From IMG/VR virus record IMGVR_UViG_3300036817_000162: a stretch of 64,000 bases of DNA; one strand, 5' to 3'. A model generated the notes under the pieces. That model was not told the DNA's origin, searched no databases, and worked only from the letters and a program-made list of their open reading frames with translations. Position numbers and translations under genes: made by a program. The DNA is from a virus. Of this stretch, positions 49,197 through 51,425 are shown in pieces (position 1 is the stretch's first letter; the number at the start of each line of letters is the position of its first letter).

Positions 49197-51425
49197 ATGG
49201 ACGTTACCGAGGCAGTCATCACCCGGACGCGCCGCGTCCCGCTGCCCGAAGTGACCCCCGGCGACGGGTCGGCGGTCACCCGGCAGCTTGACGTTGTCCT
49301 GGTGTCAGCGGGCTTCAAGCTGTCCCGCAACCTGTTCGTCAACCTGTCCGGGCGGGACACCGGCCAGGTACTCGACATCGGCGTGAAGGTGCTCGCCGCC
49401 GTCCGCCGGATCGCGGGCGACCACGTGCAGCACAACCCGTACTTCAAGAACTTCCCGTTGAACGTCCCCGACACCCTGGAGTTCTGGGCGGGACTGATGG
49501 AAGAGGCGCTGTTCGTCAACGCCGGCTTCTACGGGGCGGTCACCGACGGCCTGATGGTTGACATCGGCGCCGGGGAGATGGTCGAGGCCGGCAGCCTCCT
49601 GTCGCTGCCCGGCTACGGGAAGGTCCAGCACAGCTACGAGGACATGCTGGCCGCCCACGAGGCCCTGGCCGCCTCCGCCCGTGACCGGATGACGCTGCTG
49701 CACCCCGGGGGCACCGAAAGCGAGGAGACCAGTGCCCTGTACCTGGAACTCGCCGGATCGAACGTCCCCCTGGCCCCGGAAGACCTGCGGCTGCTGGAGG
49801 AACTGGCTGCCGTATGCGTTGCCGGGCCGCAGCCGGACCGCGTCCCGGTGCGGGAGAACCGGGCGGTCATCAACAAGGTCGCCCTGGCGAACGGGTGCAT
49901 GCTGCTGGCCGACACGGTCACCGACGTGCTCCGTGCCGCCGCCGCCGCATCCGCCGGGGACGTGACCCTGGAAACCCCCACCAAGTTCCGGTCGTTCACC
50001 CGCCCCGAGCGGCGCACCCTCATGGCGTCCCTCAACCGGGTGACGCAGAACCCGGTCAAGTTCGCCGACGTCAGCCAGTACGCGGAAGAGTGGAAGCGGC
50101 TCGGTGAGCGGCTGCACCCGCACGAGTACCCCCAGTTCCCCTACGCGGCCGGCGTGTTCCAGGTGGCACGCCGCGAGAAGCGCGCACCGTCGATCACGTC
50201 GATGGCCGAGACGAGCTTCGCGACCGGCCGCACCACGATGGCCGCCCGCCGGCTCGCGCACGCCCCCGGCCTGTACTTCCGGTCCCTCGACCGGCTGCTC
50301 CGCAACGCCGACCCGGCCGCTGTCGAGGTCATCACCAGCCTCGCCGAGGAGATCGCCCCGCAGGTATCGGGGCGGGTACTGCTGGGCGTGCGGGAGCACC
50401 TACAGAACCGGCACGGCAAGACGGGGCTGCCGCGTGTCTTCGCGAACCGCAACAGCCGCGCCTGGGTGACCCCCGACACCCGCCCCGGCATCGACGCGGG
50501 CATCCGCCGGCATGTCATGGCGATGCTCGACGAGGTCATCGCGTCCCGGCTGCCGCAGGGCGGCCGGCTGATCATCGACCCGGACGCCCTCGGTGTCGCC
50601 CTGCCCCTGTCCGGTAAGCCCGCCGCGCCGGGGCTCGGCGTCATGCCGCGCGGCTCGGTGAGCGCGGTCGTGCCCGGTGAGCAGGACGTCCTGACGTTCT
50701 TCAACTACTGGAAGCAGGCCAAGCACCGCACCGACTACGACCTGTCCGCCCTCATGACCGACCGCGAGTTCAGCGTGACCGACTGGGTGTCGTGGCAGAA
50801 CTTCCACTCGGCCGACGCGGCAGCGACCTACTCCGGGGACATCACCAGCGCCCCCGACGGCGCCACCGAGTTCGTCACGTTCAACCTGGACAAGATGCGG
50901 CTGCCCGTCATCGTCCCGCAGATCCTCGTCTACTCCGGTGAGGAGTTCAGCGAGGCGGAGGAGTCGTTCTGCGGGTACATGCTGCGCGGCAAGGACCAGC
51001 GCGGCAACCCGTTCGAGCCGGCCACCGTCCGGATGAAGTCGGAGCTGCGCGGCAGCGGGCGGGTCGCGATGCCGCTGGCGTTCATCCGGGGCGACGACGG
51101 CCAGTGGCGGGCCAAGTGGCTGCACTTCTACCTCAAGGGCAGCCCGCAGTTCAACGTCGTCCAGGGCCACAAGGTGACGACCAGCCTGCTGACGCGGGCC
51201 GTGATCGAGCGTGACTACCTGCGGGTCGGGTACCTCACCGCGCTCATGGGCAAGCAGACAGCGGACGGGATCGCGCTGCCCGCACGGACCCCGGATGACG
51301 TGGCCCGCCTGGTCAGTGACACCCCCGGGCCGGTGACGTACATCGGCCTGGAGCGCCCCGACGGGCTCCCAGCCGACGCCACCGTGATCACCCTCGCAAA
51401 TCTCACTAGTGTGATCCCCGCATAG
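49197..51425 (+). CDS. large helical-repeat (TROVE/Ro-like) + C-terminal TerD-domain protein
   Basis: GAGAGAGG RBS, 742 aa; TerD motifs DYDLSAL and YSGDITSAPDGATEF; APGLYFRSLDRLLR in helical region; TROVE relationship is inference. Confidence 0.7.
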   Translation: MDVTEAVITRTRRVPLPEVTPGDGSAVTRQLDVVLVSAGFKLSRNLFVNLSGRDTGQVLDIGVKVLAAVRRIAGDHVQHNPYFKNFPLNVPDTLEFWAGLMEEALFVNAGFYGAVTDGLMVDIGAGEMVEAGSLLSLPGYGKVQHSYEDMLAAHEALAASARDRMTLLHPGGTESEETSALYLELAGSNVPLAPEDLRLLEELAAVCVAGPQPDRVPVRENRAVINKVALANGCMLLADTVTDVLRAAAAASAGDVTLETPTKFRSFTRPERRTLMASLNRVTQNPVKFADVSQYAEEWKRLGERLHPHEYPQFPYAAGVFQVARREKRAPSITSMAETSFATGRTTMAARRLAHAPGLYFRSLDRLLRNADPAAVEVITSLAEEIAPQVSGRVLLGVREHLQNRHGKTGLPRVFANRNSRAWVTPDTRPGIDAGIRRHVMAMLDEVIASRLPQGGRLIIDPDALGVALPLSGKPAAPGLGVMPRGSVSAVVPGEQDVLTFFNYWKQAKHRTDYDLSALMTDREFSVTDWVSWQNFHSADAAATYSGDITSAPDGATEFVTFNLDKMRLPVIVPQILVYSGEEFSEAEESFCGYMLRGKDQRGNPFEPATVRMKSELRGSGRVAMPLAFIRGDDGQWRAKWLHFYLKGSPQFNVVQGHKVTTSLLTRAVIERDYLRVGYLTALMGKQTADGIALPARTPDDVARLVSDTPGPVTYIGLERPDGLPADATVITLANLTSVIPA

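What the first reader, a model, noticed from the sequence alone, without database searches (positions are those of the whole stretch)
49197..51425. Helical-repeat + TerD fusion protein as probable RNA-binding partner of the array
Seen: 742 aa with a long predicted alpha-helical N-region and a clear C-terminal TerD domain; its stop is 15 nt from the first RNA stem. Known: Ro60/Rsr proteins are TROVE (helical toroid)+vWA and are encoded next to their Y RNAs, and TerD domains occur in stress and anti-phage Ter loci. Inference: a Ro-like protein in which TerD replaces vWA, recognising the CCAU/GCUHU stem rather than the canonical Ro60 bulged helix.
Basis: partly seen in the sequence, partly recalled or inferred. 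Interest (0 to 1): 0.7.

Follow-up and report, generated by a model that had tools for sequence, protein, structure and literature searches.

The report
Ro60-like TerD protein with partner RNAs
A soil-phage gene encodes a 742-residue protein (helical body resembling the RNA-surveillance protein Ro60, an inserted TerD domain, a decayed RING finger) that in phages and many actinobacteria always lies right beside its own family of small folded Y-RNA-like RNAs, so it is probably the protein half of an undescribed Ro60/Y-RNA-type particle.

Summary
The ORF is real (49197-51425, +; alternative GTG start at 49179). Residues 481-658 form a TerD domain. It is not terminal: about 90 residues follow it. 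The stop lies 14 nt before the first of four covarying RNA units.

The partnership with the RNAs is very well supported genetically.
- The RNA motif follows the gene in 89 of 91 related loci.
- A covariance model built from the motif hits once per 8-12 Mb genome, always next to the gene.
- Among 101 Streptomycetaceae genomes, the 14 with a strong RNA hit are exactly the 14 with an orthologue.

The "Ro-like" reading is only partly supported.
- No TROVE or vWA signal appears by sequence.
- TerD appears inserted into a small alpha/beta domain at the vWA position rather than replacing it outright.

New here: the protein is a RING-less sister of the curated NF041916 (MXAN_6230/SCO0854) RING family. 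That family carries a variant of the same RNA just upstream of its gene.

RNA binding, expression and function remain untested. This scan had already noted the same system on other DNA. I found no paper describing it.

The parts
49197..51425 (+). CDS of the 742-aa protein (748 aa from the alternative GTG at 49179); residue numbers in this report count from 49179
   Evidence: GC3 0.92; more than 2000 homologues
49179..49715 (+). N-terminal region, residues 1-179: helices plus a low-confidence insert. It carries the conserved GDHVxHNxYFxxFPxNVPDT motif and is shared with the RING family
49515..49628 (+). Decayed RING position, residues about 113-150. It aligns with the Prok-RING_4 finger of NF041916 members, but all cysteines are lost
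   Evidence: low pLDDT
49716..50423 (+). Helical-repeat domain, residues 180-415, pLDDT 90-98. It holds 12 conserved Arg/Lys and is the part that superposes on the Ro60 HEAT ring
50424..50618 (+). First alpha/beta segment, residues 416-480 (two strands, a helix, a strand). It aligns with the start of the Ro60 vWA domain. No DxSxS MIDAS motif
   Evidence: sequence
50619..51152 (+). TerD domain, residues 481-658
51153..51422 (+). Second alpha/beta segment, residues 659-748. Together with 416-480 it forms the small domain that brackets TerD
51440..51506 (+). RNA unit 1 (handle only)
   Evidence: model R1, 69.7 bits, E 4e-15; covariation
51526..51598 (+). RNA unit 2 (handle only)
   Evidence: R1, 63.8 bits
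51602..51698 (+). RNA unit 3 (CCAUC/GGCUAU variant of the handle with a 41-nt inserted hairpin payload)
   Evidence: R1, 40.0 bits
51704..51838 (+). RNA unit 4: handle carrying a permuted tRNA-like payload (T arm, acceptor-like stem, D arm) of the YrlA type
   Evidence: R1, 48.2 bits; Rfam YrlA RF02553 at 51715-51829, 49.3 bits, E 4.6e-9, below the gathering score of 69
51843..51896 (+). Perfect 18-bp GC-rich inverted repeat closing the gene-plus-array block; probable terminator
   Evidence: read directly from the sequence; equivalent hairpins follow the unit in chromosomal loci

Best explanation
The gene encodes the dedicated protein partner of the adjacent small RNAs. Together they form a ribonucleoprotein built on the plan of Ro60 with Y RNAs.

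Shown:
- Gene and RNA are inseparable across phages and bacteria.
- The RNA is a two-helix hairpin with strong covariation. It has a conserved internal loop (CCAUG opposite CGCUYU) and a conserved pyrimidine apical loop (CUUCCUUCU).
- Extra modules, such as a YrlA-type tRNA mimic, are grafted into the apical loop.
- The protein has a TerD domain and is an end-to-end homologue of the NF041916 RING family with the RING cysteines lost.

Moderately supported: the helical domain plus the small alpha/beta domain are arranged like the Ro60 HEAT ring and vWA cap, with TerD inserted in the cap.

Inferred:
- The RNAs are co-transcribed with the gene and cut out as stable RNAs.
- The arginine-rich helical domain grips the shared handle. 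The internal loop gives subfamily specificity.
- The variable payloads (tRNA mimic, hairpins) recruit tRNA-handling, RNA-repair or RNA-decay enzymes or substrates.
- The phage thereby gains an RNA quality-control or tRNA-repair scaffold during infection. TerD may act as a Ca2+ or small-ligand switch.
For: Linkage:
- The 9-mer CTTCCTTCT lies 35-45 nt after the stop, on the same strand, in 89 of 91 homologue loci (80 genomes, 9 viral contigs, 2 others).
- The stop-to-RNA gap is 17 nt in 51 of 88 loci.

RNA structure:
- 63 units, 97.4% of cells paired.
- 11 of 16 pairs show compensatory changes.
- Slid controls give 49-59% paired, and 0 of 500 shuffles reach the observed value.

Specificity:
- Model R1 gives exactly one hit in each of 5 whole genomes of 8.5-11.7 Mb, about 20 nt after the gene.
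- In 101 Streptomycetaceae genomes, the 14 with strong R1 hits are the same 14 that carry an orthologue, and the hits are adjacent in each.

Breadth:
- An uncultured jumbo phage has 3 units downstream.
- Rhodobacter phage RcXuper has units and a YrlA-like piece upstream of a 25%-identical gene.
- Rhodococcus phage Weasels2 has AT-rich units downstream.
- The low-GC contig L101 carries 4 tRNAs, 2 units, a YrlA-like RNA, a RING/TerD gene and an RNA ligase.
- A bona fide NF041916 protein (986 bits) has a variant unit 31 nt upstream of its start.

Fold:
- With the N-half model, all three Ro60 representatives are the only alignments longer than 250 residues.
- Solved Ro60 structures differ from each other by 5.8-6.5 A (PMC12135203).
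- 12 conserved Arg/Lys lie in the helical domain.

Context: unit 4 matches Rfam YrlA at E 4.6e-9. The phage also encodes an RlaP RNA-repair nucleotidyltransferase.
Against: - There is no sequence-level link to TROVE or vWA_Ro60. Pfam gives 0 of 63 members at E up to 10, the PDB profile search finds no Ro60, and hhalign gives probability 0.4% against a shallow TROVE alignment.
- Foldseek and the ESM-Atlas shape search do not retrieve Ro60 or TROVE.
- Ring closure could not be inspected, because no coordinates were available to me.
- No MIDAS motif is present.
- The canonical Ro60 recognition motif GNCGAAN0-1G (PMC4201824) is not the invariant part of this handle.
- The RNA sits 14-17 nt after the stop here, and 31 nt before the start in the RING family. 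Both positions are also compatible with a cis-acting UTR element.
Confidence: 0.7

Rival explanations
1. Same RNP function, but the protein is not a Ro60 relative. It would be an independent helical-repeat, ex-RING, TerD RNA-binding family that converged on Y-RNA-like partners, or captured Y-RNA modules from Ro60 systems.
Against: Ro60 chains are the only matches longer than 250 residues, and they rank directly behind TerD among 48,161 chains. Adding the C-terminal half raises Z and the aligned length, as expected if the alpha/beta cap corresponds to the vWA domain. The partner RNAs include YrlA-type tRNA mimics.
Confidence: 0.3
2. The RNA units are mainly cis-acting parts of the mRNA: a 3' stabiliser or terminator here and a 5' leader in the RING family. 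The protein would bind them to autoregulate its own synthesis. There would be no trans-acting RNP.
For: The distance to the stop is fixed at 14-17 nt with no room for a promoter. In NF041916 loci the unit ends 31 nt before the start codon. The pyrimidine loop CUUCCUUCU could in principle pair with purine-rich ribosome-binding sites.
Against: Arrays of 2-4 different units with grafted payloads, including tRNA mimics, are hard to explain as a UTR. The units lie on either side of the gene in different lineages. No consistent complement to the loop occurs in the 5' regions of 18 loci inspected. Units persist beside a split gene and a stop-containing gene (G069, G060).
Confidence: 0.12
3. A conflict system of the type III toxin-antitoxin or abortive-infection kind. 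The repeated structured RNAs would neutralise a harmful protein, or TerD would mark a Ter-type stress or anti-phage function with the RNA as regulator.
For: A tandem RNA array next to a single protein gene. TerD domains occur in Ter stress and phage-resistance loci (PMC7824862). The gene has a patchy distribution, about 14% of Streptomycetaceae sampled, in variable neighbourhoods.
Against: No nuclease or toxin domain was found in Pfam, NCBIfam or PHROGs. Chromosomal loci usually carry a single unit downstream, not a repeat array upstream with a terminator. No other ter genes are adjacent. The payloads mimic tRNA, as in Y RNAs.
Confidence: 0.05

Closest known systems
Bacterial and phage Ro60 (Rsr; TROVE ring plus vWA) with Y RNAs YrlA/YrlB (Rfam RF02553; Chen et al. 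2014, PMC4201824), including phage phiLo Ro60 with Yrl1/Yrl2 (PMC12135203)
   Different: No TROVE or vWA_Ro60 sequence signal and no MIDAS. A TerD domain is inserted. An extra N-terminal region carries a decayed RING. The RNA handle has its own invariant motifs (GGCCAUG, CUUCCUUCU, CGCUYUCC) instead of GNCGAAN0-1G. The system coexists with canonical Ro60 in the same genomes.
NCBIfam NF041916, MXAN_6230/SCO0854 family RING domain-containing protein
   Same: End-to-end homology (25% identity, E 5e-37 over residues 37-738; model hit E 8.6e-87). Same N-region, helical domain, TerD and tail. It is also accompanied by a unit of the same RNA family.
   Different: P0001 scores 292 bits against a cut-off of 600. 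The Prok-RING_4 finger is lost. The RNA lies downstream of the gene rather than upstream, and its internal loop reads CCAUG/CGCUYU rather than CUCCG/CACUCU.
TerD family proteins (PF02342; for example Klebsiella TerD 2kxt, S. coelicolor 3ibz and 2qz7) of ter stress and phage-resistance loci
   Different: Here TerD is one domain inside a 742-aa protein. The acidic Ca2+ loop is partly lost (GDNITGEGEGDDE in 3ibz against SGDITSAPxGAsE). There is no ter operon context.

Membership tests
Ro60 / TROVE (PF05731 + PF25045) | TROVE domain detectable by sequence | tested here: not met
   No hit for P0001 at E up to 1. 0 of 63 family members hit at E up to 10. The family profile finds no Ro60 chain in the PDB. 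hhalign against Streptomyces TROVE proteins gives probability 0.4% (the TROVE alignment was shallow).
Ro60 / TROVE (PF05731 + PF25045) | HEAT-repeat ring fold | tested here: inconclusive
Ro60 / TROVE (PF05731 + PF25045) | vWA domain with MIDAS (DxSxS) capping the ring | tested here: not met
   No vWA family hit. The strand region 418-432 reads RVFANRNSRAWV, without DxSxS. A small alpha/beta domain split by TerD occupies the position.
Ro60 / TROVE (PF05731 + PF25045) | Y RNA genes adjacent on the same strand, at least one with a tRNA-like domain | tested here: met
   Four units at 51440-51838. Unit 4 matches YrlA at 49.3 bits, E 4.6e-9, below the gathering score of 69.
Ro60 / TROVE (PF05731 + PF25045) | Y RNA 5' recognition motif GNCGAAN0-1G (PMC4201824) | tested here: not met
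   The invariant 5' bases are GGCCAUG. The preceding GGCGAGG only resembles the motif and covaries freely.
Ro60 / TROVE (PF05731 + PF25045) | Binds Y RNA on the outer surface and RNA 3' ends in the central hole | not testable with these tools
   Needs biochemistry or an experimental structure.
TerD (PF02342) | TerD beta-sandwich domain | tested here: met
TerD (PF02342) | Complete acidic Ca2+-binding loops | tested here: inconclusive
   The alignment to 3ibz shows tDyDLS retained, but GDDE is replaced by GAsE. Metal binding was not tested.
NF041916 RING_SCO0854 | Score above the curated cut-off (600 bits) | tested here: not met
   292.2 bits for P0001, against 986.5 bits for L103:523-3144.
NF041916 RING_SCO0854 | Prok-RING_4 zinc finger | tested here: not met
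   No PF14447 hit in P0001. The aligned stretch, residues about 113-150, has no cysteines.
NF041916 RING_SCO0854 | Shared full-length architecture | tested here: met
   BLASTP E 5e-37 over residues 37-738. Atlas shape match TM 0.64 over residues 6-485.

The most novel reading that the evidence does not exclude
The whole superfamily (NF041916 RING/TerD proteins plus this RING-less branch) would be a second, Ro60-independent class of Y-RNA-type ribonucleoproteins, spread through bacteria and large phages. A shared RNA handle would dock interchangeable RNA payloads (tRNA mimics, hairpins) onto a ring-like protein. A TerD domain, and ancestrally a RING finger, would couple RNA surveillance or tRNA repair to Ca2+ or ligand sensing, or to protein modification. 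In phages it would serve as a counter-measure to host tRNA- or RNA-cleaving defences.
Probability: 0.3. Interest if true: 0.9.

Novelty: new variant of a known kind. Interest (0 to 1): 0.8.

Why it matters
Ro60 with Y RNAs is so far the only known particle of its kind, and its bacterial role is still debated. A second protein family with more than 2000 members would give an independent system in which to ask what such scaffolds do. This family has its own covarying RNA handle, carries tRNA-mimic payloads, occurs in cultivable Streptomyces and isolated phages, and sometimes coexists with Ro60.

The finding would also assign a first function to the curated but uncharacterised MXAN_6230/SCO0854 RING family and to "TerD family protein" annotations in hundreds of actinobacterial genomes. 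It adds an RNA family that is absent from Rfam 15.

Tried and rejected
- Pfam on the single protein: no hit.
- Megablast of the gene plus array against 50,697 phage records: no match.
- Own-genome searches: no genome is held for this window.
- hhalign of the family against a Streptomyces TROVE alignment: nothing. The TROVE alignment had low diversity (88-96% identical rows), so this is weak negative evidence.
- Foldseek against the PDB with the N-half model: no match at E 0.001 or better.
- Atlas feature search: only unnamed or TerD-labelled viral clusters, scores 0.84-0.87.
- The idea that the ORF after the array (51999-52802) supplies the missing vWA: no Pfam or PHROG hit and no relative in any of about 100 related loci. 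Dropped.
- The idea that the CUUCCUUCU loop pairs with the gene's own ribosome-binding site or mimics the 16S 3' end: no consistent complement upstream of 18 genes inspected, and the CCUCC core is absent. Left as speculation.
- Sequencing runs: the stretch is held fully only by a soil-metagenome DNA run that may be its source; no RNA holder is listed.
- Papers by Burroughs and Aravind (RNA repair, 2016; RING fingers, 2011) and Anantharaman et al. (Ter systems, 2012) are not held. I could not check whether they mention this architecture.
- Complex prediction was not used: the partner is an RNA, and a homodimer exceeds the size limit.
- My first two scripts for delimiting units failed, because GCGAGG can also pair with CUUCGC inside the unit. 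A motif-anchored extraction replaced them.

Full report
**Setting.** The window has 69% GC and carries phage genes. These are a RecT/YqaJ recombination pair, a DnaB-type helicase, small and large terminase subunits, a Mu-type portal and a DUF7178 giant protein. The stretch studied is held in full only by a soil-metagenome DNA run, and no whole genome is held for it. The target gene lies between the large terminase (40810-42444) and the portal (53383-54975). Related viral contigs also have a portal 2-3.5 kb downstream of their copy.

**Observation.**
- ORF 49179/49197-51425 (+) is the only long high-GC3 frame here. Homologues align from residue 7-13, which favours the ATG at 49197 and a 742-aa product.
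- Two AlphaFold models were made: the full length from 25 sequences (pLDDT 78) and residues 1-485 from 63 diverse sequences (pLDDT 88, pTM 0.82).
- Together they give this layout:
  - helices with a poorly modelled insert (residues 1-179);
  - a very confident helical-repeat domain (180-415);
  - two strands, a helix and a strand (416-480);
  - a beta-sandwich (481-658);
  - an alpha/beta tail (659-748).
- The stop is 14 nt from the first RNA unit.

**The RNAs.**
- Four units follow the gene: 51440-51506, 51526-51598, 51602-51698 and 51704-51838.
- Sixty-three non-redundant units from the window and related loci align into a 67-position hairpin. P1 (7 bp) is followed by an internal loop (CCA(U) opposite (G)CUYU), then P2 (9-10 bp), then an apical loop that opens with UCCUUCU and closes with UAG.
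- Pairing is 97.4%, against 49-59% when partners are slid. Eleven of 16 pairs show compensatory changes, and no shuffle out of 500 reaches the observed values.
- Unit 4 carries, inside the apical loop, a permuted tRNA body that Rfam's YrlA model recognises (49.3 bits, E 4.6e-9, below the gathering score of 69).
- Rfam 15 has no family for the handle itself.

**Linkage of gene and RNA.**
- The core 9-mer lies 35-45 nt after the stop, on the same strand, in 89 of 91 loci that encode a homologue. One exception is a locus cut short just after the gene.
- The gap between stop and RNA is 17 nt in 51 of 88 loci.
- Covariance model R1 finds exactly one hit in each of five whole genomes of 8.5-11.7 Mb, always about 20 nt after the gene.
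- In an even sample of 101 genomes of the same family, the 14 with a strong R1 hit (65-80 bits) are exactly the 14 with an orthologue (E below 1e-120). Each hit is adjacent to the gene, even where the gene is split (G069) or contains a stop (G060).
- Chromosomal loci have one or two units; viral contigs have up to three or four.
- The pairing extends far beyond actinobacteria:
  - An uncultured 485-kb phage has three units downstream.
  - Rhodobacter phage RcXuper has three divergent units and a YrlA-like piece upstream of a 25%-identical gene, next to a tmRNA.
  - Rhodococcus phage Weasels2 has AT-rich units and a YrlA-like piece in the 389-nt gap after its gene, beside a tRNA cluster.

**Relationship to a curated family.**
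- The only curated model that P0001 hits is NF041916, the MXAN_6230/SCO0854 RING family (292 bits, cut-off 600).
- A true member (L103:523-3144, 986 bits, Prok-RING_4 at residues 137-178) aligns with P0001 end to end (E 5e-37).
- The finger falls on P0001 residues about 113-150, which have no cysteines and low model confidence. P0001 therefore belongs to a RING-less sister branch.
- These RING proteins also have a unit of the same RNA family, 31 nt upstream of their start codon. This was seen in 7 of 16 sampled genomes that carry the paralogue, at a strict threshold. The units keep the same CUUCCUUCUC apical loop but have a different internal loop, CUCCG opposite CACUCU.
- The internal loop thus changes with the protein branch while the apical loop does not. 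This is what one expects if the internal loop is a protein-specific contact.
- A low-GC contig (L101) carries four tRNAs, two units, a YrlA-like RNA, a RING/TerD gene and an RNA ligase in a row.

**Is the protein Ro60-like?**
- By sequence, no. There is no TROVE or vWA_Ro60 hit in any of 63 members, none in a profile search of PDB sequences, and nothing by hhalign against Streptomyces TROVE proteins (shallow target alignment).
- Canonical TROVE plus vWA_Ro60 proteins exist elsewhere in 3 of 5 host genomes, so the two families are distinct and not redundant.
- Solved Ro60 structures differ from one another by 5.8-6.5 A (PMC12135203), so the rmsd values are not out of range.
- Adding residues 486-748 raises both Z and the aligned length by about 60 residues. 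I read this as the split alpha/beta domain lying where Ro60 has its vWA cap, with TerD inserted into it. This is inference; I could not inspect coordinates.
- Foldseek and the Atlas shape search do not list Ro60. I put the odds of true Ro60 homology at about even.

**Mechanism.**
- Shown: the co-inheritance of gene and RNA, the RNA structure, the domain content and the family relationships.
- Inferred:
  - co-transcription, from the fixed 14-17 nt gap and the single terminator hairpin after the array at 51843-51896;
  - direct binding of the handle by the arginine-rich helical domain, which has 12 conserved Arg/Lys;
  - payload-mediated recruitment of tRNA- or RNA-repair factors.
- Context supporting the last point is the recurring company of tRNA genes, a tmRNA, RNA ligase, a metallophosphoesterase and nucleotidyltransferases. 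This phage also encodes an RlaP RNA-repair nucleotidyltransferase at 29250-30206.
- The role of TerD (Ca2+ or ligand sensing) is speculation.

**Rivals.**
- A purely cis-acting UTR element fits the positions of the RNA. It does not fit arrays with tRNA-mimic payloads, nor the switch of side between lineages.
- A type III toxin-antitoxin or Ter-type defence reading lacks any toxin domain or ter neighbours.
- The ORF after the array is not a conserved vWA partner.

**Novelty.**
- Full-text searches found no paper that links TerD, SCO0854 or MXAN_6230 with Y RNAs or Ro60. The jumbo-phage survey mentions ROT/TROVE and stand-alone TerD in actinobacterial phages separately.
- Three key Aravind-group papers are not held, so prior mention of the domain architecture cannot be excluded.
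- Earlier agents of this scan reached the same general reading on this window's RNAs and on several other genomes. These are not independent evidence.
  - the one-hit-per-genome result and the 14-of-14 co-occurrence test;
  - the Ro60 fold ranking for this copy;
  - the decayed-RING relationship to NF041916;
  - the finding that bona fide NF041916 genes carry a branch-specific variant of the RNA upstream.

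Noticed in passing
window 29250-30206 (+): RlaP family nucleotidyltransferase (PF10127, 'RNA repair pathway DNA polymerase beta family', E 3e-25; phrog_388). The phage therefore carries a further RNA-repair-type gene about 19 kb from the RNP module.
   Followed up: partly
window 51999-52802 (+): 267-aa ORF right after the array, proposed elsewhere as a split-off vWA. It has no Pfam or PHROG hit and no relative next to any of about 100 related loci, so it is not a conserved partner.
   Followed up: yes
L103:426-491, L104:3882-3951(-), L105:462-528, L106:3506-3580(-): Bona fide NF041916 RING_SCO0854 genes of Streptomycetaceae carry a variant unit (GGCUCCG...CUUCCUUCUC...CACUCUCC) about 31 nt upstream of their start codon. 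Rfam has no family for it.
   Followed up: partly
L101:708-5957: Low-GC contig (32-38% GC around the RNAs) with four tRNAs, two units (30 and 21 bits), a YrlA-like RNA (35 bits), a Prok-RING_4/TerD gene, three small ORFs and an RNA ligase (PF09414) in one direction.
   Followed up: partly
L097:1239-2262 (Rhodobacter phage RcXuper): A permuted tmRNA, a YrlA-like piece and three divergent units (CAUACUUCU loop) lie directly upstream of the homologous gene RCXUPER_7. A nucleotidyl transferase and tRNAs lie downstream.
   Followed up: partly
L092:925-2799(-), L094:685-2268(+): Canonical TROVE (plus vWA_Ro60) proteins are encoded elsewhere in 3 of 5 genomes that also have the TerD-fusion gene. The L094 protein matches phage phiLo Ro60 (9l5y) at E 9e-28.
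   Followed up: partly
about 50-70 nt upstream of the start in Streptomyces loci (for example L006, L009, L033, L047: 2935-2960); window 49160-49172: A conserved GAAAACC(C/G)n(A/G)TGCG-like motif precedes the gene in many Streptomyces loci, with GGAAAACCAG in the window. It may be a promoter or operator element.
   Followed up: no
G060:C91:61650-63797, G069:C38:53869-55996: Two sampled genomes have the gene interrupted (one TAA inside; one split into two frames), yet each retains a full-scoring RNA unit next to it.
   Followed up: no
window 9407-11568 (-): RecT (PF03837) and YqaJ-like exonuclease (PF09588) recombination pair. A RuvC-like resolvase lies at 23567-24223 and a PAPS-reductase-like gene at 39564-40574.
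   Followed up: no
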